DNA from: a virus
DNA: 64,000 nt
Strand: one strand, 5' to 3'
IMG/VR virus record: IMGVR_UViG_3300005563_000031
Coordinates: 1 to 64,000 of that record
The notes beneath the pieces are model-generated. The model was not told the DNA's origin, searched no databases, and saw only the letters and a list, made by a program, of their open reading frames with translations. The stretch's first letter is position 1. Every line of letters starts with the position of its first letter. Position numbers and translations under genes: made by a program. This document shows positions 38,255 to 52,683 of this stretch, piece by piece.

Positions 38255-38681
38255 AACGTTTGACTATCGCTGGGGTCGTAAGCTCACCGCGTTAAAAGGT
38301 TGGGCGGAATATGTTGACCTCAATTGGTCTCCCGACCGCGCCTACGGTTACGACGCACCCAAATGCAGTTGCGTGGTAGAAAATGGCGTTGTAATGCGCC
38401 AATGTTGGAAGCATTTCAACGAAACCTATTATGGATCTAGTAGTGCATCCGGTATAGGTAAATCAACAACAACGCACACCGGAGTTCACGACGATGCCGA
38501 AGTTACACGAAATCCTCGCGGCCGAAAAAATTCCAACCGCCGCGTGGAAGACGATGGTGCAAGAAACACTCAAAAAGTTCAAAGCACCGGACAGCTTTTT
38601 CCACGGGCACAGCAAAAGCCTGACGATGCTCGATCAGGAGGACCCGAAGTCGAAGGTAATCGAAGCGCAGAACCGTTCTGA
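38244..38681 (+). CDS. hypothetical protein
   Basis: coupled start; tail runs 188 nt into the next gene. Confidence 0.45.
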   Translation: MDSETFDYRWGRKLTALKGWAEYVDLNWSPDRAYGYDAPKCSCVVENGVVMRQCWKHFNETYYGSSSASGIGKSTTTHTGVHDDAEVTRNPRGRKNSNRRVEDDGARNTQKVQSTGQLFPRAQQKPDDARSGGPEVEGNRSAEPF

Positions 38682-39276
38682 GAAGCCGGTCACGACGACA
38701 GTCGCAGAGACGTTGGAATATGCCTTCGACCTGTTCGCGCGCAACGAGGACACGCAGTTACTGAAGAACCTCGGCAACGCCGAAGCACGCGGCACCATCT
38801 ATTTGCACGGTGCGGTGCTCGCTGCCGATGTGCCAGTTGATTCGTTGCTCGGTATCGAGAGCCGGCTGCAGGAAGTGAAGCAGCTGTTGCTCGCCATGCC
38901 TACACTCGATGCGACCAAGCACTGGGACCGCGCCGACCACATCGGCGAGTATGTGTGGGAGATAAAGTACCCGGAGGAATCGGCAAAAACAGCGAAGACC
39001 GCCAAGGCGGTCACACTGTCGCCGGCCACGAAGGAACACCCGGCGAACGTACAGTTGGTGCACGAGGATGTGCCGGTGGGCAAGTTCACGACCATCGCGC
39101 GCTCGGGCGAGTGCACGGCGGCGGAGAAAGCGGAAGCGATCAAGAACATCGACCTGATCATCACTGAGGTGAAGCGGGCACGGGTGCGCACCAACGAGAT
39201 CGAGGTGAAGGTGGCGACCATCGGCGATAAGCTGGTAAAAGCCATTCTCGAGCCGTTGCGGCGCGTGAATTTGTAA
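38494..39276 (+). CDS. uncharacterised elongated coiled-coil protein adjacent to a tRNA-like ncRNA
   Basis: CCGGAGTT RBS; MPKLHEILAAEK, MPTLD, PATKEHPANV, VKRARVRTN; strong phage codon bias. Confidence 0.85.
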   Translation: MPKLHEILAAEKIPTAAWKTMVQETLKKFKAPDSFFHGHSKSLTMLDQEDPKSKVIEAQNRSEKPVTTTVAETLEYAFDLFARNEDTQLLKNLGNAEARGTIYLHGAVLAADVPVDSLLGIESRLQEVKQLLLAMPTLDATKHWDRADHIGEYVWEIKYPEESAKTAKTAKAVTLSPATKEHPANVQLVHEDVPVGKFTTIARSGECTAAEKAEAIKNIDLIITEVKRARVRTNEIEVKVATIGDKLVKAILEPLRRVNL

Positions 39277-39278
39277 CG

Positions 39279-39565
39279 AGTTGGTAGCGATAGCGTTTGT
39301 GATTGTGAACCTGAGTCGCGGTTGAAGAAACCGTAATTTGAGATTTACCAACACTGCGTTAGCGCGAGGCGCGAAATAGCCCTAAAAACATACTATCTCG
39401 GTAGACGCGGGTTCGAATCCCGTCCCCCGCCCCATATCACTATGCGGGGGTGGTGCAGCGGTTTAGCACAACTGGGTTAACTGTGATTGCGACAAACAAG
39501 GTAATTTCGCGGGTGCCCCCAGGGGCGGGTTCGTAACTACGGTAAATGATACGGATTCCGCCCCT
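39279..39565 (+). ncRNA. ncRNA with circularly permuted tRNA-like core (YrlA-like topology) and 6-nt periodic flanks
   Basis: T arm 39407-39423, acceptor 39424-39430/39444-39450, CCA 39432-39434, D arm 39453-39469, closing stem 39397-39402/39471-39476; terminal hairpin 39521-39565. Confidence 0.8.
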
Positions 39566-39591
39566 CTATTAAGATAAGAGAGATACCAATA

Positions 39592-39927
39592 ATGACAGTT
39601 AAAATTCTACCTCCTCTGAAACTGTGCACCCCACAGCAGCGCAAGTTTCTTACACAACGCCTCCACCAATCGCGTACGCCGTCGCACTACATCAGCTGGC
39701 GTGACAACGACCGTGACGCCGAAATGCCAAAGGACGTGCGCGCGGCGAAACGACTTCTGTTGCAGTGGCAAAAGCAGCGGCAGCGGATGGCCGACGCATC
39801 GAAAACTATCTTTAATCGCGCACACGAGGAGGCTAAAACAGCCATCCTGTTTAAAGGACCAGACGAGGCCCTACACGCAGTCGAGCGATACGAGCGGATG
39901 TGCCTCGAGGCGCGCGAGAAGGACTAG
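39592..39927 (+). CDS. basic hypothetical protein
   Basis: 111-aa ORF converging on the spanin gene. Confidence 0.6.
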   Translation: MTVKILPPLKLCTPQQRKFLTQRLHQSRTPSHYISWRDNDRDAEMPKDVRAAKRLLLQWQKQRQRMADASKTIFNRAHEEAKTAILFKGPDEALHAVERYERMCLEAREKD

Positions 39928-42691: not shown

Positions 42692-43927
42692 ATGGAAAAA
42701 TGGGAACGGGAGGCTAAAACCTTCGCAAAATGGTGGCACACGGGACAGTACCGTAAGTATACCAACGACACCGTGCCGTACTACCTGCACTGCGGTGCGG
42801 TTGCGCGGTTGCTGAAAACACACGTACCTAGCGCGACGCGCGAAATGATTATCGCAGCGTGGTTACACGACACGCTCGAGGACACGGATGTTACGGCGCT
42901 TGAAATCTACAATACCTTTGGCTCCGTGGTGCTACAGCACGTCGAGGATCTTACCGAGCGTAAGTACCCCGGCTGCGGTCGACGCGAACGCAAAGAGCGG
43001 GAACTCGCACGACTTTCGCAAGTCTCGATTGGATCTAAAACTATTAAGTTAGCTGATCTACTCGACAATGCGAAGGATATACTCGAGAAGGACAAGGATT
43101 TTGCGGTGGTGTACTTGCGCGAGAAACGCGACTTACTTACCTACGCGCTAAAGGACGGCGATCCGGTGCTGTGGGCGTTGTGCGATCGCGTGGTGGAAGA
43201 CGGTTTAAAACTGTTGTCAGAATTTAAGGGGATTTCCAGCATGAAAACGGGCTTAACAGATATCACGTTAATTGTCGATAGATCCGGATCGATGAATAAG
43301 ATTTACAATGACACCATTGGCGGTCTCAATTCCTTTTTGCAATCGCAGCGCGCCGTGGAAGGCGAGGCAGTGTTTTCTGCCGTACAGTTTGATGATAAGT
43401 ACGAACAGGTCGTGACAGGCATCGACATACAACGCGTAACGAATTTCACGCCTGGGTATGACTTTATGCCACGCGGTTCCACAGCACTGTACGATGCGCT
43501 GGGACGCACTATTACGGCTATTGGCGCGCGGTTGAAGGCGTTGTCTGAAGAGGCGCGGCCTGAACGCGTAATGGTCGTGATCGTTACCGACGGCAAAGAG
43601 AACGCGAGCGAGGAATTTACCAAGAAGCAGGTGTTTGATATGATTAAACACCAAACCGACGTGTACAAGTGGGACTTTACCTACATCGGCGCAAACCAGG
43701 ATTCCATGCAGTCTGGAGCTGCTATCGGCATCGCTGCGAGCAAAACGATGGATTACTCGCATACAGGTGTAGGCGCACGGGGTGCCTTCGCTGCTGCATC
43801 TAACTACACGCACAGTTTCCGGGCCGCCCCAACCCGCGAGGCTGCGAGTGCGAGTGCATTCACGGCCGAGGATCGCAAAGCGGCGGCGGGCGATAGTGCG
43901 GGACTTAAGCCGGACAGTACCGTTTAA
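42692..43927 (+). CDS. (p)ppGpp hydrolase-like HD domain fused to a vWA domain
   Basis: HTGQYRK...PYYLH, AAWLHDTLEDT, IKLADLLDN; MIDAS DRSGS, GSTALYDA, IVTDGKEN; internal start at 43241. Confidence 0.85.
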   Translation: MEKWEREAKTFAKWWHTGQYRKYTNDTVPYYLHCGAVARLLKTHVPSATREMIIAAWLHDTLEDTDVTALEIYNTFGSVVLQHVEDLTERKYPGCGRRERKERELARLSQVSIGSKTIKLADLLDNAKDILEKDKDFAVVYLREKRDLLTYALKDGDPVLWALCDRVVEDGLKLLSEFKGISSMKTGLTDITLIVDRSGSMNKIYNDTIGGLNSFLQSQRAVEGEAVFSAVQFDDKYEQVVTGIDIQRVTNFTPGYDFMPRGSTALYDALGRTITAIGARLKALSEEARPERVMVVIVTDGKENASEEFTKKQVFDMIKHQTDVYKWDFTYIGANQDSMQSGAAIGIAASKTMDYSHTGVGARGAFAAASNYTHSFRAAPTREAASASAFTAEDRKAAAGDSAGLKPDSTV

Positions 43928-43969: not shown

Positions 43970-45475
43970 ATGGTCACTGCAGTAAAGGTACAAGGTAATG
44001 CGCTCGTAGACGGCGACGGTACGCCGCTACAGCTGCGCGGTGTAAACTGTTCGGCGCTCGAATTCGTGGCGATCCAATACGCCTCCGCATCCCCCAAAAC
44101 CAACTTCGATAACTGGGGCGGCCAAAAGCCGAATCTCAGCGCTGTCAAGTCCTGGGGCGCCAACAGCATCCGTGTGCCTCTCAACGAGCAAAGTTACCTT
44201 GGACTCGTATGCACTGACCAAACCGGTGCGCAACTTTTGGCAGATCCGGGCGGTAACTACCGCAGTGCTGTGAAAGCGATCGTGGACAGTGCGACCGCAT
44301 TGGGGTTGGCGGTGATTTTGGACTTGCACAAGAACACCGCCAACTTCACACCGGCCGGCGCCAGTACGGCAGTGCCTGGCTTGTCCAACACGAGCGGACA
44401 GTCGGAGATGGCGGATGCCGACCACAGCTACGACTTCTGGTCGGCGGTTGCGAACGATTACAAAACCTACCCCAACGTGCTGTTTGACCTCTTTAACGAG
44501 CCGCATATTGACAATTTCCAAAATCCCAGCACTTTCTCACCAAACCCCGGCACTAGCTTGCCGGCAGGACTGAACACCGAAGCGGCATGGGCGTGGGCTG
44601 TGTGGCGCGACGGGGGCACCGGTAAGCTGATCTACGCCAACAACCAGACCTACTCGCAGAACTATGCCTCTGCCGGCATGCAGGCCATGTTGGATGCCGT
44701 GCGCGCGACCGGCGCCACGAACATATGCATGGCGGGCGGGGTATCGTGGGCGCAAGACCTTGCGTTGTGGACGCAGTTTTGTCCCATCGATCCGATCAAA
44801 CAACTGGCGTGCTCGTGGCATGCGTACCCGAGCCAACAGAACCCCGCCTACCCGAGCTATCCGCCGGGCACGTGGTGGGGGCAGCCGAAGGGCTCGTTTG
44901 ATTACGCAGCCGACATTCTCGCCGCCGGCTACCCGATCATTATCGGCGAAACAGGAGACGATCCCAACAACCAACTCATGCCTGTACTGTTGCCGTGGGC
45001 GGATGCGCACAAAGTATCTGTTACCGCGTGGACATGGGATGTGGGGTGGGGGAATGATTCACTCATTGCGGATGCGAGTGGCACACCTGTAAACACCGGC
45101 ATCGCGTACAAACAATGGCTTCAAACGCACACCTCCGGAGGTACTCCTGTGTCCACTACCCAAAATGCAGCCCTGTCGATCGCCTACAACAGCGTGGCCG
45201 GTTTCCCGGCGGGCAGCGTCGTTGACCACATCAACGTTGCACTTACGGCGAAAAACAACACCGCCAACACCCCGCCTGCCAAAAACGTCGCGCCCGGCAC
45301 TGCCAATGTGACCTTCACAGGACTCGCACCGGACACGTACCAAATTGCCGTGCAAGCAATGCCAGCGACGGGCAGCGGGTTTGGCACGCCGGCAAGCGGC
45401 TCGATTACCATTACGCAAGTCAACACCACTATCTCGTTGTCGCTGCCAAGCACTGTCACTGCTACACAGCCGTAA
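43970..45475 (+). CDS. glycoside hydrolase family 5 (cellulase-like) with C-terminal Ig/FN3-like domain
   Basis: LRGVN, WGANSIRVPL, VILDLH, LFNEP (acid/base), WHAY, IIIGETG (nucleophile), AWTW. Confidence 0.9.
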   Translation: MVTAVKVQGNALVDGDGTPLQLRGVNCSALEFVAIQYASASPKTNFDNWGGQKPNLSAVKSWGANSIRVPLNEQSYLGLVCTDQTGAQLLADPGGNYRSAVKAIVDSATALGLAVILDLHKNTANFTPAGASTAVPGLSNTSGQSEMADADHSYDFWSAVANDYKTYPNVLFDLFNEPHIDNFQNPSTFSPNPGTSLPAGLNTEAAWAWAVWRDGGTGKLIYANNQTYSQNYASAGMQAMLDAVRATGATNICMAGGVSWAQDLALWTQFCPIDPIKQLACSWHAYPSQQNPAYPSYPPGTWWGQPKGSFDYAADILAAGYPIIIGETGDDPNNQLMPVLLPWADAHKVSVTAWTWDVGWGNDSLIADASGTPVNTGIAYKQWLQTHTSGGTPVSTTQNAALSIAYNSVAGFPAGSVVDHINVALTAKNNTANTPPAKNVAPGTANVTFTGLAPDTYQIAVQAMPATGSGFGTPASGSITITQVNTTISLSLPSTVTATQP

Positions 45476-45759: not shown

Positions 45760-45835
45760 TGGATCACCCGGATGGAATCGAACCATCATGTACGATGTTC
45801 AAAGCATCGTTGGGATACCAGTAACCCACAGGTGA
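45760..45835 (-). tRNA. tRNA-Gln(UUG)
   Basis: loop CTTTGAA; TTCGATT T loop; CCA. Confidence 0.85.
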
Positions 45836-45838
45836 AAA

Positions 45839-45973
45839 ATGAGTCGATTTGAACGTGTGGTGATCCAACTGCTGATCATTATCGCTAATAGGGTAGCGCG
45901 CAGTGCATCACCTGCAGACAGAATAAACATCGATCACGACGGGTGGCCGATGTACGGCGACAAACCCTTTTAA
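45839..45973 (+). CDS. 44-aa ORF filling the spacer between two antisense tRNAs
   Basis: MSRFERVVIQLLIII...; AGGTG RBS; exactly spans the spacer. Confidence 0.45.
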   Translation: MSRFERVVIQLLIIIANRVARSASPADRINIDHDGWPMYGDKPF

Positions 45974-45974
45974 A

Positions 45975-46050
45975 TGGATCAGGCGGTTGGAATCGAACCA
46001 ACGTGAACTGCGTTCAGAGCGCAGTGGGGATGCCAGCAACCCACACCTGA
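45975..46050 (-). tRNA. tRNA-Gln(CUG)
   Basis: loop CTCTGAA; CCA. Confidence 0.85.
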
Positions 46051-46058
46051 GAATTTCT

Positions 46059-46241
46059 ATGACAACAGAGAAAACTGCTATTTGCGGAGCGATCCGGCCT
46101 CAAGAAAAGCCTACGTGCCGACGTTCGCAAAAGATTGGCGGGCCGCGCTATGTTTGTGGACGCGAACCGAAGCACGAGGGGCCGTGCGGCTGCTGGCGGT
46201 TTTTGTCGCAGGTCGCTGCTGCGAAATTGGCGGGAAGGTAA
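46059..46241 (+). CDS. small Cys/His-rich ORF between antisense tRNAs
   Basis: ICGA...YVCGREPKHEGPC. Confidence 0.45.
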   Translation: MTTEKTAICGAIRPQEKPTCRRSQKIGGPRYVCGREPKHEGPCGCWRFLSQVAAAKLAGR

Positions 46242-46300
46242 GGAGTTGCACCCTACTTTTGGGGTTTGGAGTCCCATAGCTCGCTCCGAGCACCGACCCG
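46228..46300 (-). tRNA. tRNA-Trp(CCA)
   Basis: loop CTCCAAA; TGCAACT T loop; CCA. Confidence 0.75.
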
Positions 46301-46307
46301 TGAAACT

Positions 46308-46670
46308 ATGCCTATCTACGGTAGTCTAACACTACGCGCACGAATACTGGCAAACGATGAGCCGGCGTGGTTGAAAAAGCACGCACGCCGCGATTACATC
46401 GTGCAAGTACATCTTGCCACACCACGCTGGTACTCGCGTAAAGAAGTCGTACGGCTTAAGCAGAAGGCGCACGAGCTGTCGAAAGCGAAACGACGCAAGT
46501 ACGTACTGGACCACATCATCCCCCTCACACACAAGCGCGTATGCGGTTTAAACGTACACCACAATATGCAAATCATCGATGCCGGCACGAATGCGCGCAA
46601 ATCCAATCACTGGTGCGAGTGGCACGGGGAGTTATTCGCGGAACCTGAGCAGTTTCCACTGTTTCGATAG
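46308..46670 (+). CDS. HNH endonuclease
   Basis: ATPRW, LDHIIPL...VCGLNVHHNMQII....NARKSN. Confidence 0.9.
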   Translation: MPIYGSLTLRARILANDEPAWLKKHARRDYIVQVHLATPRWYSRKEVVRLKQKAHELSKAKRRKYVLDHIIPLTHKRVCGLNVHHNMQIIDAGTNARKSNHWCEWHGELFAEPEQFPLFR

Positions 46671-46758
46671 CGTGCCGGGCGCCGCGTGCCCATCGGTGCT
46701 AGGAAGTTTTGTGGCCCGCAAGCGGGGAAGATTCCTACGACGGGACGCCCATGCACTC

Positions 46759-46847
46759 TGGCGGAAGGCAGTGAACTCGAATCACAAACGCTTATCGCGT
46801 TCCATCCGCTTTCCAAGCGGCTCGAGGCCCTGCCTCGTTTACCTTCC
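46759..46847 (-). tRNA. tRNA-Ser(GGA)
   Basis: loop TTGGAAA; long variable arm; G73-CCA. Confidence 0.85.
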
Positions 46848-46852
46848 AATGT

Positions 46853-46941
46853 TGGCGGATACCGTAGGAGTCGAACCTACACGGCCCGTTAAGACCCTAA
46901 CACCGCTTTCAAGGCGGGCGAGCGCGCCAGTGCGGGTATCC
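46853..46941 (-). tRNA. tRNA-Ser(UGA)
   Basis: loop CTTGAAA; long variable arm; G73-CCA. Confidence 0.8.
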
Positions 46942-47015
46942 GAAAAGTAGGTGAGGCCCGGTGCAGCGGATAGCACTTGGACAGGTGCGTCCACACCGGG
47001 GGTCACCGAGCAGCT

Positions 47016-47059
47016 GAACCGGAACTGCGCTTGTTCCTTACTGGCCTTTCGGCCGGTTC
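47016..47059 (-). ncRNA. small three-way-junction RNA motif, copy 1
   Basis: GAACC-GGCC(GAAA)GGCC-AGTAA-hairpin-GGTTC. Confidence 0.55.
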
Positions 47060-47172
47060 GTTTGCGAGTATAAGGGCACTTGCGCGCGGGTGCAGTCGCT
47101 TACTGCACCTTGCGTCACGACCAACGCGCAGCAGGAGCGACACTGCCGCCATGGCGTCTAGCAAGTGTTTTC

Positions 47173-47260
47173 TGGCGGATGGCAATGGAGTCGAACCACA
47201 AGCGCTTGCGCACTCCATCTGTTTTCGAGGCAGTGCTGACACCGTGTCAGTTTACCATCC
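47173..47260 (-). tRNA. tRNA-Ser(CGA)
   Basis: loop CTCGAAA; long variable arm; CCA. Confidence 0.85.
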
Positions 47261-47373
47261 GTAAAATCTAAGGCGGTTAGGTTTAAGTAGGGGGCAAACC
47301 CTTACCCGGCGCCGGGCCCAGCATCACCGCAAGCCCCTACCAGTCTTGACCAGCAAGTACCGGTAGGAATGTT

Positions 47374-47462
47374 TGGCGGAAAGCAGTGTACTCGAAACAC
47401 ACACCCGTTAGGATGCCCTCTGTTTAGCAAACAGGTACGAGCGCCTGCCCGTTTTACTTTCC
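47374..47462 (-). tRNA. tRNA-Ser(GCU)
   Basis: loop TTGCTAA; long variable arm; CCA. Confidence 0.85.
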
Positions 47463-47468
47463 GTAAAT

Positions 47469-47547
47469 TGGTCCCCGCAGCAGCTTGGGGAGCTGCGACC
47501 GTCCGGTTAAAAGCCGGATGCTCTTCACCCGTGTGAGCTATACGAGG
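47469..47547 (-). tRNA. tRNA-Lys(UUU) with aberrant T loop
   Basis: loop CTTTTAA; T loop TCCCCAA; CCA. Confidence 0.7.
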
Positions 47548-47553
47548 AATGTT

Positions 47554-47629
47554 TGGTGCTCAGTGATGGAGTTGAACCATCTATCTCCGCGTTACGAATG
47601 CGGCGCATCGCCGGCAATGCTTACCGAGC
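47554..47629 (-). tRNA. tRNA-Thr(CGU)
   Basis: loop TTCGTAA; CCA. Confidence 0.85.
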
Positions 47630-47743
47630 TTATCGGAATAAGAAGACTGTACCAAACATGCTCGCACCATCGGCAGCAAAACACCGCGCGCCATCCTCGT
47701 AGTCGTTTGCCGCACTGTCTGCAGTTCATGTTGGAATTATACA

Positions 47744-47818
47744 TGGAGCCCCACGTTGGACTTGCGCCAACCCTCGCTACTTACAAGGCAGCTACACCGC
47801 TATCTGTGTTTGTAGGGC
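47744..47818 (-). tRNA. tRNA-Thr(UGU)
   Basis: loop CTTGTAA; T loop CGCAAGT; CCA. Confidence 0.8.
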
Positions 47819-47883
47819 GAAAAGTACCGCCGAGCCCCTGTGCACACGCAGGTATTGGAAAGGCCCGGCGGATTTTGCAATTA

Positions 47884-47924
47884 GAACCAGACGCTGGCGC
47901 CTTTACTGGCCTTTCGGCCGGTTC
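47884..47924 (-). ncRNA. small three-way-junction RNA motif, copy 2
   Basis: 22-nt identity to 47038-47059 with a different third helix. Confidence 0.55.
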
Positions 47925-47943
47925 AATATGCATACTAACATGT

Positions 47944-48019
47944 TGGTGCCTCACCGACGAATTGCACGTCGCGCCTCATCTTTACCAAAGATGCGTTCCG
48001 CTCGCAGAACTTGAGAGGC
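47944..48019 (-). tRNA. tRNA-Thr(GGU)
   Basis: loop TTGGTAA; CCA. Confidence 0.8.
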
Positions 48020-48026
48020 AGTAAAT

Positions 48027-48100
48027 TGGCCTCCACGGTTGGACTCGAACCAACAACAGCAAGCCTTCGGAGGGCTCGCGCCGTATCCGACGGCGTGGAG
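48027..48100 (-). tRNA. tRNA-Arg(CCG)
   Basis: loop CTCCGAA; CCA. Confidence 0.75.
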
Positions 48101-48107
48101 TTTAAAG

Positions 48108-48181
48108 TGGCACCCCCGGTTGGACTCGAACCAACATATCTGCCGTTCGTAGCGGCGGATCCTTGTTCCGAAGGCAGGGGC
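48108..48181 (-). tRNA. tRNA-Arg(ACG)
   Basis: loop CTACGAA; CCA. Confidence 0.8.
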
Positions 48182-48440
48182 GTAGAAAACTGTCCGGCGG
48201 CAGTAGGCGCGAGTACGGCTTGCGCTTTCGCCGCGCACTTACCTTAAAGGCCTGCCGGTATGGCCGTTACACCGGTTTGTAAAGGGCTTGGTAGTAAAAT
48301 AAATGGTTTAGCGTGTCTGAACACAGGCGCTCGCACACTGCCACACCACCGGCCAATAACCACCCTTTGTTTAGGTAGTCAGTGACTTCGTTATTAAAGT
48401 ACTGCAAGTTTGTGTTACTTACTACGATGTATTTCAATGT

Positions 48441-48536
48441 TGGTACTCGATGTAGGATTTGAACCTAACCCGTTGCAGCCAGTCCGACCGCTCTCGCACG
48501 CTTATAAGGCGCACCCGCACACCAGTGCTATCGAGT
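48441..48536 (-). tRNA. tRNA with UAU anticodon (Ile) and very long variable region
   Basis: loop CTTATAA; ~27-nt variable region; TTCAAAT T loop; CCA. Confidence 0.7.
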
Positions 48537-48631
48537 ATTGCTCCTTTCCGAGGGGCGGCGGGCAGTGTAGTTAGCGACGCTACACTGAGTTGGGAGCTAC
48601 CCAACCAACCCCGCAGGCCCCTCGTACTTCT

Positions 48632-48711
48632 TTGTTGCGGTAGCTGGACTTGCACCAGCCTTAAATCGGCTTATGAAACCGTGGCGAAACTACCTTCGAC
48701 CATATACCGCA
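48632..48711 (-). tRNA. tRNA-Met/Ile2(CAU), no encoded CCA
   Basis: loop TTCATAA; 3' end reads ACAA. Confidence 0.65.
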
Positions 48712-48883
48712 AAATTGTGCCCGCTTCGCTTTTCATTTCGTGGCAACGGACTAACACGCGGTGGCACCTATCAGCTCCCTACATGCATGCAACGCATTTG
48801 GGCGGGGATGGAGGCAGGGGTTAGGGAATGCGCATGTCTAGAATACGCCAATACACCTAAAGCCGTACCAACACCCCCATACC

Positions 48884-48958
48884 TGGTAGCGGGAGAGGGA
48901 TTCGAACCCCCGACCTTCTGGTTATGAGCCAGACGAGCTACCTCTGCTCTATCCCGCA
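48884..48958 (-). tRNA. initiator-like tRNA-fMet(CAU)
   Basis: loop CTCATAA; 1:72 mismatch; canonical D and T loops; CCA. Confidence 0.9.
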
Positions 48959-49023
48959 TCAAACAATGCCGCGTTCCTCTTATATACCGGATACGCGGCC
49001 AACCCGGTATTGCAATTCGAGGA

Positions 49024-49098
49024 GGTGCTGTTGGGACTATCCTACAGGAGAACAAAGGACAGACCGGACTTATGGACGCTACGTGTCCCAACAGCACC
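49024..49098 (-). ncRNA. 75-nt element closed by a perfect 14-bp stem
   Basis: GGTGCTGTTGGGAC/GTCCCAACAGCACC. Confidence 0.5.
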
Positions 49099-49128
49099 GA
49101 CAACCGAACTATACAGCGAACTTTGAAT

Positions 49129-49203
49129 TGGTGCCTCGAGAAGTGCTCGCACCTTCGTATCTGGGTTTTCAGGCCAGCGCTACTCTGTCTCAGCTATCGA
49201 GGC
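49129..49203 (-). tRNA. tRNA-Phe(GAA)
   Basis: loop CTGAAAA; atypical T loop; CCA. Confidence 0.75.
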
Positions 49204-49209
49204 AAATAC

Positions 49210-49295
49210 TGGTCCTCACGGCTGGACTTGCACCAGCACGCCGGTTAAGGCACAGCGTTCTCAACACTGCGTGTCTGCTGTTTCACCACGCGAGG
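49210..49295 (-). tRNA. tRNA-Leu(GAG)
   Basis: loop TTGAGAA; variable arm; CCA. Confidence 0.8.
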
Positions 49296-49302
49296 AATAG
49301 TT

Positions 49303-49551
49303 TCAACGGATCGTTTCAATAGTCTTACCATCCTCGTTCATAATGTAGGCGACGTTGTAGGAACAGGACTGGTCCATTCCCACTGTTACCTCTGTAGTTT
49401 CACCCGGTGCGTCGCCGCACTGTATAACCGCGCACAAGTTTTCCTTGTACGTTACGTGGACGGCTTTCGCCTCACGCACTGATATCGCTTCTGTGTATGA
49501 GGGCTTAGCGGGCGCTTCTGGCCCGTACTTATAGAATTTTACTGTCAACAT
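49303..49551 (-). CDS. hypothetical protein within the tRNA array
   Basis: AGGA RBS; AYIMNEDGKTIETI C-terminus. Confidence 0.7.
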   Translation of the reverse strand: MLTVKFYKYGPEAPAKPSYTEAISVREAKAVHVTYKENLCAVIQCGDAPGETTEVTVGMDQSCSYNVAYIMNEDGKTIETIR

Positions 49552-49581
49552 AGTCTACTCGTCCTACTACTGCTAAGAAAC

Positions 49582-49665
49582 TGGTACCTCTGGTGAGAGT
49601 TGCACTCACACACCTTGCGGCGCCGGAATTTGAAGCCGGTGCGTCTGCTGTTCCGCCACAGAGGC
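49582..49665 (-). tRNA. tRNA-Leu(CAA)
   Basis: loop TTCAAAT; variable arm; CCA. Confidence 0.8.
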
Positions 49666-49671
49666 AAAAGT

Positions 49672-49748
49672 TGGTATCCCCGGCGGGAGTTGCACCCGCA
49701 GTTGAACGGATTTTAAGTCCGCTGTGTCTGCTATTCCACCACGAGGAT
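49672..49748 (-). tRNA. tRNA-Leu(UAA) lacking the long variable arm
   Basis: loop CTTAAAA; ~6-nt variable region; CCA. Confidence 0.8.
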
Positions 49749-49751
49749 GAA

Positions 49752-49823
49752 TGGGCACCCACGGTTGGAGTCGAACCAACGCTGGTAGCTTAGGAGGCCA
49801 CTTTCGTTCCGCCGACGTGGGTA
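49752..49823 (-). tRNA. tRNA-Arg(CCU)
   Basis: loop CTCCTAA; reduced D arm. Confidence 0.7.
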
Positions 49824-49985
49824 TCACAGATGAACAGTACCTGCGACTACGGTAATGGCGAGGATAAGGCAGATCAGCAGCACCGCAATGTGCAGCAGTG
49901 GGCCCGGTTTGCCTATCATCGACATGATCGTGATGATCGCAGCGGCGATCAAAAATACGAGAACGAGAATTGCAGCAGCACTCAT
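49824..49985 (-). CDS. small two-TM membrane protein within the tRNA array
   Basis: AAGGAG RBS; MSAAAILVLVFLIAAAII. Confidence 0.65.
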   Translation of the reverse strand: MSAAAILVLVFLIAAAIITIMSMIGKPGPLLHIAVLLICLILAITVVAGTVHL

Positions 49986-50043
49986 GTTGGAAACTCCTTT
50001 TCTAACACGGGTGGGCGGTAGCAAGTAACGCTCCCGACACAGC

Positions 50044-50116
50044 TGGCACCCTCGGTTGGAGTCGAACCAACAGTCTGCGGCTTAGAAGGCGCGCTACCGA
50101 TCCGGCCGGCGAGGGC
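50044..50116 (-). tRNA. tRNA-Arg(UCU)
   Basis: loop CTTCTAA; CCA. Confidence 0.75.
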
Positions 50117-50122
50117 GAAGGG

Positions 50123-50195
50123 TGGAGCGGAAAATGGGAGTCGAACCCATCAGCGGCGTCGTTGGCAACGATACCTCACACCATGTGCATCCGCA
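50123..50195 (-). tRNA. tRNA-Gly(GCC)
   Basis: loop TTGCCAA; U73-CCA. Confidence 0.8.
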
Positions 50196-50230
50196 TGTTC
50201 AGTTCTTTCGTCCGTCCCACTGTTGCATTA

Positions 50231-50319
50231 TGGGCAACCACCCGAGAGGATTTGCCGCTACCTCTGACATCTCCCACTTAAAGGAGGGAGCGCTCTGGTG
50301 CTCTGAGCTACGAGTGTTA
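50231..50319 (-). tRNA. non-canonical tRNA-Lys(UUU)-like RNA
   Basis: loop CTTTTAA on a lengthened stem; 11-nt T loop; bulged acceptor. Confidence 0.55.
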
Positions 50320-50342
50320 TCAACAGTCGCCACGAAAGAATT

Positions 50343-50418
50343 TGGTGCATGCTGTTGGATTCGAACCAACTGCCTCCCGGTTATCAGCCGGGTGCGCATC
50401 CGTATGTGCCTCGCATGC
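50343..50418 (-). tRNA. tRNA-Ile(GAU)
   Basis: loop CTGATAA; CCA. Confidence 0.88.
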
Positions 50419-50530
50419 GAAATAGATGTGGGTATTTGTCCGGCACCCACCGAGCCGTGCGGCTATTGCAGCGTAACCGCGACACCTCCAGCGCTTGCAT
50501 TGGCACTGGACCGGGCCGTTAAAGGTGTAG

Positions 50531-50624
50531 TGAAGTAGGATGTTTGGATTTGCACCAAGACCTCTGTTATTCCGCACGTCTGCGGATTCGACAGTGCTCT
50601 TCTATGACTGAGCTAACACCCTAC
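50531..50624 (-). ncRNA. tRNA-like RNA with the anticodon loop replaced by an extended hairpin
   Basis: 8-bp acceptor, GCTC/GAGC D arm, 4-bp T stem, TCCGCA-GACG-TGCGGA hairpin; ends TTCA. Confidence 0.6.
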
Positions 50625-50645
50625 ATATTCACTATACCTTGAAGT

Positions 50646-50720
50646 TGGTCGGAGTAGTAGGAATCGAACCTACCTTGTCGTGCTCCCAAAGCACGCGATC
50701 AGCCACTGACCCACACTCCG
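50646..50720 (-). tRNA. tRNA-Pro(UGG)
   Basis: loop TTTGGGA; C1-G72; CCA. Confidence 0.88.
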
Positions 50721-50777
50721 ATGGCGAGTGTCTCTCCGCTCCTGTCACGCCTGGATCGCCCGGCGTTCGGCATTGGC

Positions 50778-50855
50778 TGGTGCGGGTAGCAGGATTTGAA
50801 CCTACGGCCCCGTGCGCCCGAGGCACGTGCTCTGACCAGACTGAGCTATACCCAC
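50778..50855 (-). tRNA. tRNA-Pro(CGG)
   Basis: loop CTCGGGC; G1-C72; CCA. Confidence 0.8.
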
Positions 50856-50865
50856 ATGTTAGAAT

Positions 50866-50942
50866 TGGAGCACCCGGCCGGACTTGCACCGACGATTTTA
50901 ACGCTTTGCAGGCGCCTGCATTTGCTGCTCTGCCACGGGTGC
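50866..50942 (-). tRNA. tRNA-Cys(GCA)
   Basis: loop CTGCAAA; U73-CCA. Confidence 0.82.
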
Positions 50943-50946
50943 GTGT

Positions 50947-51020
50947 TGGAGGGTCGTAATGGAGTCGAACCATTTATGGAGTCCGGTCACAGCGGAGTCC
51001 GGCTACCGAGCCAACGGCCC
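50947..51020 (-). tRNA. tRNA-His(GUG)
   Basis: loop CTGTGAC; U73-CCA. Confidence 0.75.
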
Positions 51021-51116
51021 ATTGTTTGTGCCTTCCCGCGCACGGCTTGCGGCCGGTCGATCGCGTGGCGCGAGTCACGGCGCACTCCGAGGTGCGCTGG
51101 GCTTGATCGACAAAGT

Positions 51117-51204
51117 TGGTACCTCTGGAGGGAATTGCACCCCCATGCCGTTTTACGGGCGCTGCGGTCTGAACGCAGTGTGTCTTCTGTTTCACCACAG
51201 AGGC
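51117..51204 (-). tRNA. tRNA-Leu(CAG)
   Basis: loop TTCAGAC; variable arm; CCA. Confidence 0.82.
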
Positions 51205-51213
51205 AAAATGAGC

Positions 51214-51345
51214 ATTAGGACAGTGCGCTGGTGCCGCGTTGGCATTCGCGCAAACCTCCGTTAGACAGCGCTATCTAACATCATCGATCCTGCTTTATAC
51301 AGCTTGCATAGCCCCACTCGATATGGGACACGGCACTGTCCTAAT
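51214..51345 (-). ncRNA. 132-nt multi-branch element closed by a perfect 13-bp stem
   Basis: ATTAGGACAGTGC/GCACTGTCCTAAT fills the Glu-Leu spacer. Confidence 0.5.
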
Positions 51346-51346
51346 T

Positions 51347-51421
51347 TGGTAGACCGTACGGGATTCGAACCCGCCTAACATGCTTGAAAGGCACGTTGCA
51401 TCACCGAGACGCATACGGTCC
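51347..51421 (-). tRNA. tRNA-Glu(UUC)
   Basis: loop CTTTCAA; CCA. Confidence 0.8.
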
Positions 51422-51596
51422 GTAAAATTTAAGTGGCTCTGGCGCATAGGGGTACTCGTGTGAGGCGCATGCGCCACTGGCGGAGACAGGTACCTGGCAC
51501 GACTTACGCACCGTTGCTGCGTCGTAACCTGCGCTGGCTTGCCAGGCGAGAGCGGTCTGTGCGGCAGAGCTACTAAGTATACCGCACGACAAACAC

Positions 51597-51674
51597 TGGT
51601 AGACGTGACGAGACTCTAACTCGTTAGGCTACGGTTGAGAACCGCACTGCGCGAGACACTTTGCATTCACGTCC
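51597..51674 (-). tRNA. tRNA-Glu(CUC)
   Basis: loop TTCTCAA; T loop TTAGAGT; CCA. Confidence 0.75.
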
Positions 51675-51682
51675 ATAAAAAT

Positions 51683-51754
51683 TGGTGGAGCTGTCGGGAG
51701 TTGAACCCGCAGGGTTTCCTTGCAAGGGAGACCCGTTGCCCGCAACACAACCCC
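51683..51754 (-). tRNA. tRNA-Ala(UGC)
   Basis: G3.U70, A73-CCA, TGC in loop. Confidence 0.78.
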
Positions 51755-51856
51755 GTGGTTCTTTGGTCTAGCCCAACATCTGACGGCTGGGCAGGCGCAC
51801 ATAACAGCAACGTCACCGGTAATTAACTGCTACATGTTGATCGCTTTTCGACTTAC

Positions 51857-51932
51857 TGGTAGGCCGCCAGGGATTCGAACCCTGGACCAACTGGTTAAGA
51901 GCCAGCTGCTCTTGCCGCTGAGCTAGCGACCT
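51857..51932 (-). tRNA. tRNA-Lys(CUU)
   Basis: loop CTCTTAA; canonical; CCA. Confidence 0.92.
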
Positions 51933-52030
51933 ATAAAGTTACGCTTCCGGTCATCTGCGCCGAATATCCCGTGGGCTAGTACCCACATGCTACAGGACAT
52001 GGACGGGCGTACAGAGCCGGACTTGCGTTC

Positions 52031-52121
52031 TGGTGCGTCGCGGATGGAATCGAACCTCGTGCCCTAAAGGGACCTGGTTTACAGCCAGGCGAGCGGCCAC
52101 CACTCCTTACTTGCGCAACGC
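52031..52121 (-). tRNA. tRNA-Tyr(GUA), atypical core
   Basis: loop CTGTAAA; variable arm; 8-bp acceptor; CCA. Confidence 0.75.
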
Positions 52122-52126
52122 ATGGT

Positions 52127-52198
52127 TGGTACCCGATGTGAGGATTGAACTCACTCCACCAACTTTGTAGGAGTCGGCGCCGTCCCAACGGTCCGGGC
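52127..52198 (-). tRNA. tRNA-Val(UAC)
   Basis: loop CCTACAA (C33); CCA. Confidence 0.7.
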
Positions 52199-52432
52199 AT
52201 AAACAAAAAGGATGACAATAGGCGTGCATCAGACGCCTCGTTTTACGTCACGGCTCGCGCCGCTTGGCTAGCTGCTCGCAGGTGGTCCGTAGACCACCAT
52301 TTTCGTCACCGCTTCTACCAGCGGCTCCTCGAACGTCGTTAGGCCGACTACCCAGCCAATTCTCGTATCCTCAAAAATCGTTGACGACCTATTTTTTATC
52401 GTGGTCAGCCGTCAGTGTTTTCCAGTCCTTTT

Positions 52433-52504
52433 TGGCGCCTCCAACGGGACTCGAACCCGTCACCCACTCGATAGACAGTCGAGTTTCACCCCAGGTGTAG
52501 AGGC
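52433..52504 (-). tRNA. tRNA-Asp(GUC)
   Basis: loop CTGTCTA (U37); G73-CCA. Confidence 0.78.
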
Positions 52505-52508
52505 AGGT

Positions 52509-52607
52509 TCTAACACTTAGCTGTAGGCCTGGGGCTCGAACCCAGCGCATCTCCGTTAACAGCGGAGCCTACACGCCCGGTGCAGTTGCCTACAGCAAAG
52601 TGTTAGA
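52509..52607 (-). tRNA. tRNA-Asn(GUU)-like RNA with extended acceptor helix, no CCA
   Basis: loop CTGTTAA; TTCGAGC T loop; acceptor continues into TCTAACACTT/AAGTGTTAGA. Confidence 0.65.
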
Positions 52608-52609
52608 TT

Positions 52610-52683
52610 TGGAGCGGACGGTGGGAATCAAACCCACCTCATTGCGTTGGAAGCGCAAGGCCCAGTCACTAGACCACGCCCGC
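52610..52683 (-). tRNA. tRNA-Gly(UCC)
   Basis: loop CTTCCAA; U73-CCA. Confidence 0.88.

What the first reader, a model, noticed from the sequence alone, without database searches (positions are those of the whole stretch)
38494..39565. Coiled-coil protein gene plus a circularly permuted, anticodon-less tRNA-like RNA: candidate new RNP system
Seen: a ~290-nt non-coding segment starts just after the stop of the 260-aa ORF and ends in a GC hairpin (39521-39565). Its centre is a full tRNA elbow in permuted order: CTCGGT (39397-39402), variable AGAC, T arm GCGGG-TTCGAAT-CCCGT, acceptor 3' strand CCCCCGC, C-CCA (39431-39434), 9-nt linker, acceptor 5' strand GCGGGGG, U8-G9, D arm GTGC-AGCGGTTTA-GCAC, A26, then ACTGGG pairing back to CTCGGT. 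U8-A14, G15-C48 and the D-loop GG are present. There is no anticodon loop; long flanks take its place. Known: this T-acceptor-D order is the topology of bacterial YrlA Y RNAs, which partner Ro60/TROVE; no Ro60 gene is visible in this window. Inference: the upstream protein is the RNA's partner. The in-register CCA suggests RNase P and 3' processing could open the loop to give a two-piece, possibly chargeable tRNA mimic. It lies 6 kb from the tRNA array and on the opposite strand, so it is a separate unit.
Basis: partly seen in the sequence, partly recalled or inferred. Interest (0 to 1): 0.92.

Follow-up and report, generated by a model that had tools for sequence, protein, structure and literature searches.

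The report
Phage tRNA-mimic RNA beside DUF7873
Right after an unstudied phage gene (DUF7873) lies a folded RNA of about 290 bases whose core is a back-to-front tRNA look-alike; the same gene-RNA pair recurs in many phages and hundreds of bacterial species, usually without the Ro60 protein that normally partners such RNAs, so it probably marks an undescribed RNA-protein system.

Summary
Window 39397-39476 is a circularly permuted tRNA-like fold: T arm, 7-bp acceptor stem closed by C-CCA plus a 9-nt linker, then the D arm, all enclosed by an anticodon-like stem. It is not chance. In 26 relatives, 93.8% of cells pair and 20 of 22 pairs show compensatory changes.

The upstream ORF is Pfam DUF7873. 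A model built on the core finds the RNA just downstream, on the same strand, in 78 of 84 viral sources and next to the gene in 71 of 79 bacterial loci. It scores far below Rfam's YrlA and tmRNA thresholds. It lacks the Ro-binding GNCGAA motif and the tmRNA G3:U70 pair.

The 105-kb phage genome has no TROVE/Ro60 gene, and neither do any of 22 complete related phage records. Where Ro60 is present, it has its own, different tRNA-like RNAs. The flanks carry 6-nt periodic repeats.

Most likely this is a YrlA-like tRNA mimic that works with DUF7873. Binding, RNase P/CCA processing and function are inferred, not shown. DUF7873 has no recognisable fold relative of known function. This scan has noted the same pair before on other DNA. 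I found no paper naming DUF7873.

The parts
38494..39276 (+). DUF7873 gene (260 aa), the conserved protein neighbour and proposed partner of the RNA
   Evidence: ORF listed. Pfam PF25283 DUF7873 at E 2.2e-57 over residues 1-252. 210 or more homologues. AF2 model with pLDDT 91.5.
39280..39352 (+). 5' domain. A probable closing helix P1 (GTTGGTAG 39280-39287 with TTACCAAC 39345-39352) encloses four 6-nt repeats (GTAGCG ATAGCG TTTGTG ATTGTG, 39284-39307) and a small hairpin (CGGTT-GAAGA-AACCG, 39319-39333).
   Evidence: An equivalent helix at the same place with different sequence in relatives is seen by eye in alignment A3; it was not tested statistically. Lag-6 autocorrelation is 0.40 in this flank and 0.314 over the family, without a lag-3 signal.
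39355..39373 (+). Conserved mid motif TGCGTTAGCGCGAGGCGCG (family consensus ..TAGCGTGAGGCAYG)
   Evidence: Conserved block in alignment A3. Function unknown.
39397..39476 (+). Circularly permuted tRNA-like core. Anticodon-like stem 39397-39402 with 39471-39476; T arm 39407-39423; acceptor stem 39424-39430 with 39444-39450; D arm 39453-39469.
   Evidence: R1 hit 39393-39477, 77.9 bits, E 8e-25.
39431..39443 (+). Discriminator C, CCA (39432-39434) and the 9-nt linker ending UAU before G+1. This is the predicted site of RNase P cleavage (between 39443 and 39444) and of 3' trimming to CCA.
   Evidence: NCCA is invariant or nearly so in the 26 short-linker relatives. Linkers end YUAU. Processing is inferred from M. 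smegmatis YrlA (PMC4201824).
39477..39521 (+). 3' flank. The family-conserved position of further 6-nt repeats lies directly after the core; they are degenerate in this window (TTAACT GTGATT GCGACA).
   Evidence: Lag-6 autocorrelation is 0.316 in the 45 nt after the core across 46 loci.
39522..39564 (+). Terminal GC-rich hairpin (GGGGCGG ... CCGCCCC) with a 29-nt loop holding two UACGG repeats. No U run follows it, so it is a weak terminator candidate.
   Evidence: Not called as a terminator. Relatives have a GC hairpin with a conserved ACGGCAGGYACGCACG loop at the same place.

Best explanation
Window 39277-39565 encodes one structured non-coding RNA of about 290 nt. It belongs to a widespread family that is absent from Rfam and is encoded directly after DUF7873 genes in phages and bacteria.

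Shown:
- The core is a permuted, anticodon-less tRNA mimic of the YrlA (bacterial Y RNA) type.
- The flanks carry 6-nt periodic repeats, a probable closing helix and a terminal hairpin.
- The phage has no Ro60 gene.

Inferred:
- The RNA is probably co-transcribed with the DUF7873 mRNA. No promoter-like site was found between gene and RNA.
- It folds into a tRNA-like L shape.
- Host RNase P cuts before G39444 and the 3' side is trimmed to the encoded CCA at 39434. This would give a two-piece tRNA look-alike, as in M. smegmatis YrlA.
- DUF7873, possibly as an oligomer reading the 6-nt repeats, binds the flanks.
- The particle then presents a tRNA body without an anticodon to tRNA-recognising factors. 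It could act in RNA quality control or repair alongside Ro60-type systems, or as an uncleavable decoy for tRNA-targeting nucleases. A decoy role would suit a phage that carries its own tRNA array.
For: Anatomy and covariation of the core.

Gene-RNA linkage:
- A strict descriptor finds a module within 650 nt downstream in 67 of 75 loci.
- Model R1 scores 45 bits or more on the + strand downstream in 78 of 84 viral sources.
- In an independent bacterial set, 71 of 79 loci score 40 bits or more. All 120 hits lie on the gene's strand.
- Flanking genes in bacteria are unrelated to each other (AI-2E transporter, HipA, MTHFR, GH38). The conserved unit is therefore the gene plus the RNA.

Host and phage range: Ralstonia phiRSL1, Klebsiella FBKp24, Gordonia Ronaldo, Rhizobium, Vibrio and Pseudanabaena phages, 568 or more species' genomes, and 77 of 121 Streptomycetaceae.

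Separation from Ro60:
- No TROVE or vWA_Ro60 in the phage's own genome, even at E up to 10 for TROVE and up to 1 for vWA_Ro60.
- TROVE in 0 of 22 related phage records that are at least 90% complete.
- In four phage records with Ro60, the Ro60 gene has tRNA-like modules of its own. Two of them were read base by base. There the modules lie directly upstream of Ro60, are tetraloop-closed, lack CCA and carry a shared ..AGTTACTTC 5' motif. They are separate from the DUF7873-linked ones.

Flanks: 6-nt periodicity without 3-nt periodicity. Lag 6 is the top lag in 24 of 46 loci, against about 5 expected.

Processing precedent and the decoy idea for YrlA: PMC4201824 and PMC7790460.
Against: - There are no transcript, binding or processing data for any member.
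- DUF7873 is mildly acidic (pI about 6). It has no recognised RNA-binding domain and no significant structural relative.
- An early weak Cas7 resemblance (E 5e-3) vanished with the better model.
- The encoded CCA is not family-wide: among bacterial members, 19 modules have CCA and 68 do not, mostly having N-C-U loops.
- Ro60 co-occurs with DUF7873 more often than expected. It is in 24 of 42 bacterial carriers. In Streptomycetaceae the odds ratio is 2.8 with p 0.013, uncorrected for phylogeny. It is adjacent in a few genomes, so a link to Ro60, including host Ro60, is not excluded.
- Helix P1 and the repeat-protein link were not tested statistically.
Confidence: 0.55

Rival explanations
1. It is an ordinary, divergent YrlA-type Y RNA that works with Ro60 supplied by the host. 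DUF7873 is then an accessory or unrelated neighbour.
For: YrlA is the best Rfam hit, and the topology is the same. TROVE is present in 24 of 42 DUF7873-bearing bacterial genomes. The association in Streptomycetaceae has an odds ratio of 2.8. TROVE lies within a few kb of DUF7873 in some genomes (G147, G048, G046) and in one of four phage records.
Against: Scores are 21-40 bits against a gathering threshold of 69. GNCGAAN0-1G is absent here and in 28 of 30 relatives. Where both proteins occur, Ro60 has its own, differently built modules. 28 of 77 DUF7873-positive Streptomycetaceae, and 22 of 22 complete phage records, have no TROVE. The host of this phage is unknown.
Confidence: 0.15
2. It is a cis-acting 3' element of the DUF7873 mRNA, with no trans-acting RNP function. 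A tRNA-like RNase P site and a stable 3' end would set the mRNA's processing, stability or autoregulation.
For: It almost always lies immediately downstream on the same strand. No promoter-like site lies between gene and RNA. tRNA-like structures are known processing signals (general knowledge).
Against: In two Planctomycetota loci the RNA lies upstream of the gene (L112, L118). The size and elaboration of the RNA (one or two modules, periodic repeats, a conserved terminal hairpin loop) exceed what a processing signal needs. Klebsiella phage FBKp24 has an annotated promoter between gene and RNA.
Confidence: 0.15
3. It is a two-piece (permuted) tmRNA-like or otherwise aminoacylated tRNA mimic that enters the ribosome.
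For: It has the same gene order as permuted tmRNA genes (T arm, acceptor 3' strand, CCA, spacer, acceptor 5' strand). There are weak hits to cyano_tmRNA, beta_tmRNA and tmRNA_permuted. An in-register CCA is present.
Against: G3:U70 is seen in 0 of 26 relatives. The discriminator varies among U, C, G and A, and the acceptor stems vary freely. ARAGORN finds no tmRNA. No tag reading frame was seen by eye in the relatives' downstream flanks; this was not searched systematically. A full D stem is present, unlike in tmRNA. Scores are 11-40 bits against thresholds of 47-84.
Confidence: 0.04
4. It is a circularly permuted tRNA gene (as in Cyanidioschyzon) that matures into a working tRNA, or it is a decayed remnant or junction of tandem tRNA genes.
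For: All tRNA tertiary-contact bases are kept. The phage encodes 23 or more tRNAs.
Against: There is no anticodon loop. Each flank of more than 100 nt carries its own conserved motifs. Junctions of real neighbouring tRNAs in this genome score 28.5 bits or less, against 77.9 for this element. The acceptor strands are complementary in all relatives, with 7 of 7 pairs covarying. That would not hold for junctions or remnants.
Confidence: 0.02

Closest known systems
YrlA-class bacterial and phage Y RNAs with Ro60/Rsr (Rfam RF02553; Chen et al. 2014, PMC4201824)
   Same: The tRNA-like domain runs in the order T arm, closed acceptor stem, D arm, with the anticodon stem opened to the rest of the RNA. 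Each is encoded next to, and on the same strand as, a protein gene. M. smegmatis YrlA has a 7-bp acceptor stem and is cut by RNase P and given CCA, which is the processing proposed here. These RNAs often come in tandem pairs.
   Different: The score is 21 bits here against a threshold of 69. There is no GNCGAAN0-1G Ro-binding motif. The neighbour is DUF7873, not Ro60. The phage has no Ro60. NCCA is encoded in this clade. The flanks carry 6-nt periodic repeats. In genomes with both proteins, the Ro60-linked and DUF7873-linked RNAs are distinct sets.
Two-piece (circularly permuted) tmRNA genes of alpha- and beta-proteobacteria and cyanobacteria (Rfam RF01849-RF01851, RF04321)
   Same: The gene order is T arm, acceptor 3' strand, CCA, spacer, acceptor 5' strand. 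The mature form is predicted to be two RNA pieces held together by the acceptor stem.
   Different: There is no G3:U70 alanine identity pair, no tag reading frame and no pseudoknots. A full D stem is present. Scores are far below threshold.
Stable non-tRNA RNAs and ornate RNAs found within phage tRNA clusters (for example GOLLD and ROOL; PMC12286853)
   Same: They are structured RNAs of unknown function that travel with tRNA genes in phages. Many relatives of this unit sit inside tRNA arrays.
   Different: There is no sequence or model match. This RNA is much smaller, contains a tRNA mimic and is tied to one protein gene.

Membership tests
YrlA (Rfam RF02553) | tRNA-like domain in the order T arm, loop-closed acceptor stem, D arm, enclosed by an opened anticodon-like stem | tested here: met
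YrlA (Rfam RF02553) | Score at or above Rfam's gathering threshold (69 bits) | tested here: not met
   21.2 bits over model positions 23-85 only. Relatives score 29-40 bits.
YrlA (Rfam RF02553) | GNCGAAN0-1G motif near the 5' end, the presumed Ro60/Rsr contact (PMC4201824) | tested here: not met
   No match in 39277-39591. Present in 2 of 30 relatives' 5' flanks.
YrlA (Rfam RF02553) | Encoded within about 4 kb of a Ro60/TROVE gene on the same strand | tested here: not met
   No TROVE or vWA_Ro60 anywhere in the 105,784-bp genome.
YrlA (Rfam RF02553) | Bound by Ro60/Rsr | not testable with these tools
   Needs immunoprecipitation. The host, and whether it has Ro60, are unknown.
Permuted (two-piece) tmRNA | G3:U70 alanine identity pair in the acceptor stem | tested here: not met
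   The pair is G3:C70 here. It is U70/G3 in 0 of 26 relatives (pair of columns 36 and 57).
Permuted (two-piece) tmRNA | Tag reading frame and pseudoknots; detection by ARAGORN or the Rfam tmRNA models | tested here: not met
   ARAGORN finds no tmRNA. cyano_tmRNA scores 15.2 bits against 70 and tmRNA_permuted 11.4 against 47.
Circularly permuted tRNA gene (functional tRNA) | An anticodon loop can be rebuilt from the two ends | tested here: not met
   The stem 39397-39402 with 39471-39476 opens into flanks of more than 100 nt, each with its own conserved motifs.
DUF7873-linked tRNA-mimic RNA (unnamed family defined here and in earlier notes of this scan) | Permuted tRNA-like core directly downstream of, and co-oriented with, a DUF7873 gene | tested here: met
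DUF7873-linked tRNA-mimic RNA (unnamed family defined here and in earlier notes of this scan) | Flanks with 6-nt periodic repeats and a GC-rich terminal hairpin | tested here: met
   The window's lag-6 value is 0.40.
Pfam DUF7873 (PF25283), for the protein | Score above Pfam's gathering threshold (27 bits) over the full domain | tested here: met
   195 bits, residues 1-252 on profile positions 1-242 of 244.

The most novel reading that the evidence does not exclude
DUF7873 is a new kind of RNA-binding protein that assembles, probably as an oligomer reading one 6-nt repeat per subunit, on the flanks of its own downstream tRNA-mimic RNA. After RNase P and CCA processing, the result is a two-piece, Ro60-independent particle. 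It is common in Streptomyces, cyanobacteria, planctomycetes, myxobacteria and many phages. It engages tRNA-recognising machinery, for example by blocking or sensing tRNA-targeting nucleases.
Probability: 0.3. Interest if true: 0.85.

Novelty: new variant of a known kind. Interest (0 to 1): 0.72.

Why it matters
Y RNAs that mimic tRNA have so far been known only as partners of Ro60. They were searched for only in genomes that encode Ro60 (PMC4201824). Here the same kind of tRNA mimic is tied to a different protein of unknown fold. That protein is found in about two thirds of the Streptomycetaceae sampled, in at least 568 species' genomes, and in cultured phages of Klebsiella, Ralstonia, Rhizobium, Vibrio, Gordonia and cyanobacteria.

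If the pair is an RNP, it is a second, widespread family of tRNA-mimic particles. Tractable models already exist in Streptomyces, phiRSL1 and the SEA-PHAGES Gordonia phages. It would bear on how cells and phages sense, repair or shield tRNAs.

There is also a practical use. The RNA explains unannotated gaps, doubtful small ORFs and at least one doubtful 'suppressor tRNA' call in published phage genomes.

Tried and rejected
- Nucleotide search of 38400-39700 against 50,697 phage records: no match.
- PHROGs, NCBIfam and PADLOC on DUF7873: nothing beyond a DpdC hit at E 0.027.
- Profile search against PDB sequences: none.
- Foldseek against PDB and BFVD, and VIA-align, on two models: no significant relative. 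The early Cas7 resemblance (E 5e-3, probability 0.11) was attractive because Cas7 binds RNA in 6-nt steps. It disappeared with the pLDDT-91 model, so I dropped it. The best whole-chain match is 3kdq, a protein of unknown function (Z 8.1, 147 residues aligned).
- Search for longer fused forms of DUF7873: none, which is weak evidence.
- The ATG formed by the linker's last two bases and G+1 opens only a 12-codon frame here. Read by eye, it is not kept in L002, so it was not pursued.
- Automated search for helix P1 in single sequences was no better than shuffles. P1 rests on position and on covariation seen by eye only.
- RNAalifold proposed a long-range pairing of the mid motif with the terminal hairpin loop. 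It is poorly kept in the window itself, so it is left open.
- Burroughs and Aravind 2016 and Sim et al. 2020 are not held in the library and could not be read. I could not check that.
- RtcB, CCA-adding enzyme and RlaP are absent from the phage.
Full report
**What the window is.** The window is part of an IMG/VR virus record of 105,784 bp, rated 100% complete. Its GC content is about 55%. It carries an array of at least 23 tRNA genes at 45760-52683 on the minus strand.

**Checking the observation.**
- The 260-aa ORF spans 38494-39276.
- A stretch follows with no + strand ORF of 50 aa or more, up to the next gene at 39592.
- Within it the elements run in this order: CTCGGT, AGAC, T arm, acceptor 3' strand, C-CCA, a 9-nt linker, acceptor 5' strand, U8-G9, D arm, A26, ACTGGG.
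- A GC hairpin lies at 39522-39564.
- The minimum-energy fold of 39277-39591 recovers the three hairpins as a multibranch loop and is more stable than all 100 shuffles (z = -3.3).

**Known RNA families.** At gathering thresholds Rfam finds only tRNAs in the window. A sensitive scan of 39200-39650 gives YrlA as the best hit, but at 21.2 bits against a threshold of 69, and covering only the tRNA-like part of the model (positions 23-85). It also gives cyano_tmRNA at 15.2 bits against 70 and tmRNA_permuted at 11.4 against 47. ARAGORN calls nothing there.

**The protein.** The ORF is a full-length member of Pfam DUF7873 (E 2e-57). PHROGs, NCBIfam and PADLOC add nothing. No paper in the held library contains 'DUF7873'. 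A first AF2 model (pLDDT 75) gave weak Cas7 hits. A second model on a 54-sequence alignment reached pLDDT 91.5. It shows two long helical hairpins packed against a sheet with a long beta hairpin. Neither Foldseek nor VIA-align finds a significant relative. The best whole-chain match is 3kdq, itself of unknown function (Z 8.1, 147 residues). The family is mildly acidic. No longer fused forms were found.

**The gene-RNA pair is conserved.**
- A distant viral homologue (33% identity) is followed by a full-length sub-threshold YrlA match.
- I fetched 80 viral loci with DUF7873 homologues, out of 290 confirmed.
- A strict descriptor requires a T arm with a TTCRA-type loop, then a directly abutting 7-bp hairpin, then a D arm. 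It finds a module on the gene's strand within 650 nt of the gene's end in 67 of 75 loci. It gave only a few, mostly poor, hits on the opposite strand.
- Twenty-six short-linker cores align cleanly. On them the proposed structure pairs in 93.8% of cells, and 20 of 22 pairs show double changes. No shuffle out of 500 and no slid register comes close.
- A covariance model built from them (R1) scores 45 bits or more just downstream of the gene in 78 of 84 viral sources.
- In an independent set of 79 bacterial loci, 71 score 40 bits or more. All 120 hits lie on the gene's strand. Two Planctomycetota loci have the RNA upstream instead.
- Neighbouring genes in bacteria are unrelated to one another, so the conserved unit is the gene plus the RNA.
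- The family is large: at least 568 species' genomes, 77 of 121 Streptomycetaceae sampled, and cultured phages of Klebsiella, Serratia, Ralstonia, Rhizobium, Vibrio, Gordonia, Rhodococcus and cyanobacteria.
- In phiRSL1 the RNA fills an unannotated gap after ORF270. In Gordonia phage Ronaldo, small ORFs are annotated over it. In Klebsiella phage FBKp24, a 'tRNA-Sup-TTA' call overlaps the T arm of the second module.

**Anatomy beyond the core.** Many relatives carry two modules about 200 nt apart. The first has a class-II-like D arm and an acceptor helix extended into a long hairpin. The second resembles the window's module. The window's clade (L002-L012, 45-55% protein identity) has one module.

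In this clade, and in most phage members, N-CCA follows the acceptor 3' strand. Short linkers end in YUAU before G+1. Long linkers fold so that CCA pairs with UGG. In bacteria the loop is mostly N-C-U..., with 19 CCA against 68 others.

The flanks are conserved too.
- A helix forms right after the stop codon and encloses a run of 6-nt repeats (here GTAGCG ATAGCG TTTGTG ATTGTG).
- A mid motif follows (..TAGCGTGAGGCAYG).
- More repeats lie directly after the core, and then a GC hairpin with a conserved loop.
- The repeat consensus differs between clades (UAUCGU-like here, UCAGCU or UNAGNN elsewhere), but the period is kept.
- Lag-6 autocorrelation is 0.314 and lag-12 is 0.293, against 0.25-0.27 at other lags. 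There is no lag-3 or lag-9 signal, unlike coding DNA. Lag 6 is the top lag in 24 of 46 loci.

**Relation to Ro60.**
- The phage has no TROVE or Ro60-type vWA domain, even at permissive thresholds. It also has no RtcB, CCA-adding enzyme or RlaP.
- Of 44 related phage records, 4 have TROVE. None of the 22 rated at least 90% complete does.
- In those four records the Ro60 gene has tRNA-like modules of its own. In the two I read base by base (L087, L088), the modules lie directly upstream of Ro60. They are closed by tetraloops, lack CCA, share a ..AGTTACTTC 5' motif, and score higher against YrlA (42-50 bits). The DUF7873 gene in the same genome keeps its separate set.
- This is the strongest argument that the two proteins each have their own RNA.
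- The YrlA motif GNCGAAN0-1G is absent from the window's RNA and from 28 of 30 relatives.
- Against full independence, 24 of 42 DUF7873-bearing bacterial genomes also have TROVE.
- In Streptomycetaceae the two co-occur with an odds ratio of 2.8 (49/28/17/27; p 0.013, not corrected for phylogeny).
- In a few genomes the genes are neighbours.
- The two systems may therefore act in the same field of RNA surveillance or repair, and a role for host Ro60 is not excluded.

**Other rivals.**
- tmRNA-like charging is unlikely. No relative has G3:U70, the discriminator and acceptor sequences vary freely, and there is no tag frame.
- A permuted gene for a working tRNA is excluded, because there is no anticodon loop.
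- tRNA junction artefacts score 28.5 bits or less in this genome, against 77.9 for this element.
- A purely cis-acting 3' element of the DUF7873 mRNA remains possible. It fits poorly with the elaborate flanks and with the two loci where the RNA precedes the gene.

**Mechanism.**
- Shown: a conserved structured RNA with a permuted tRNA-like core and periodic flanks, tightly linked to DUF7873, in a phage without Ro60.
- Inferred, by analogy: RNase P cleavage before G39444 and a CCA 3' end at 39434. This follows M. smegmatis YrlA, the one YrlA with a 7-bp acceptor stem, which is cut by RNase P and carries CCA in vivo (PMC4201824).
- Inferred, from synteny and the repeats: DUF7873 binds the flanks.
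- Inferred, function: the tRNA body engages tRNA-recognising factors. Hughes et al. proposed that the YrlA tRNA-like domain could be a competitive inhibitor of an anticodon nuclease (PMC7790460). A similar decoy role would suit a phage with its own tRNA array.

**Earlier notes of this scan.** The same DUF7873-RNA pair has been reported many times on other genomes, with similar readings. One later check put the odds of the bold RNP reading at about 22 in 100. My own tests agree on the observation. They add three things: the single-module, CCA-bearing clade; the periodic repeats as a family trait; and the contrast with Ro60-linked modules in the same genomes. I could not read Burroughs and Aravind 2016, which one note cites as the nearest idea in print.

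**Verdict.** The element is a new variant of a known kind, a YrlA-like tRNA mimic with a different conserved protein neighbour. Its function is unproven.

Noticed in passing
window 42692-43927 (+): A 411-aa protein joins a RelA/SpoT-type HD domain (HD_4, E 1e-7) to a vWA domain (sub-threshold VWA_2 and VWA; phrog_7371). It lies 3 kb from the RNA. The vWA part does not match Pfam's Ro60-type vWA model.
   Followed up: partly
window 43970-45475 (+): A phage-encoded GH5 cellulase-family glycoside hydrolase (E 5e-33) lies next to the tRNA array.
   Followed up: no
window 45760-52683 (-): The tRNA array has 23 ARAGORN calls. Two further Rfam tRNA hits are missed by ARAGORN (47472-47547, 49132-49203), and there is one odd call with a 2-nt anticodon (50044-50116).
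   Followed up: no
L084 3513-3597 (Klebsiella phage vB_KpM_FBKp24, MW394391.1): The annotated 'tRNA-Sup-TTA' overlaps the T arm and acceptor 3' strand of the second permuted module (R1 hit 3556-3655). It is probably a false tRNA call assembled from an upstream hairpin plus half of the mimic.
   Followed up: partly
L083 3229-3698 (Gordonia phage Ronaldo, NC_048028.1): The small annotated ORFs gp124 and gp125 lie over the region that holds two or three permuted tRNA-like modules downstream of gp123 (DUF7873). They may not be genes.
   Followed up: partly
L088 14067-14312; L087 3071-3300: Ro60 genes of phages are preceded by two tandem tetraloop-closed tRNA-like modules sharing a GTGGTGYAG..AGTTACTTC 5' motif. 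They score 38-50 bits against YrlA, below Rfam's threshold of 69, so phage Y RNAs of this type would be missed by standard annotation.
   Followed up: partly
L086 9693-10730 (-): An RlaP-family nucleotidyltransferase (RNA repair) gene lies directly upstream of the phage Ro60 gene. That record also carries DUF7873 and a large tRNA array.
   Followed up: no
G147 C4:4561415-4564681; G048 C1:~854600-862300; L120 ~3426-3629: In one Streptomycetaceae genome, one Nonomuraea chromosome and one Planctomycetaceae MAG, a TROVE gene lies within 1-6 kb of the DUF7873 gene. Elsewhere in Streptomyces the two are tens of kb apart or on other contigs.
   Followed up: partly
window 39522-39564: The loop of the terminal hairpin holds two UACGG repeats 12 nt apart. 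Relatives have a conserved ACGGCAGGYACGCACG loop whose ACG triplets are complementary to the CGU of the flank repeats. RNAalifold proposed such a long-range pairing, but it is weak in the window itself.
   Followed up: partly
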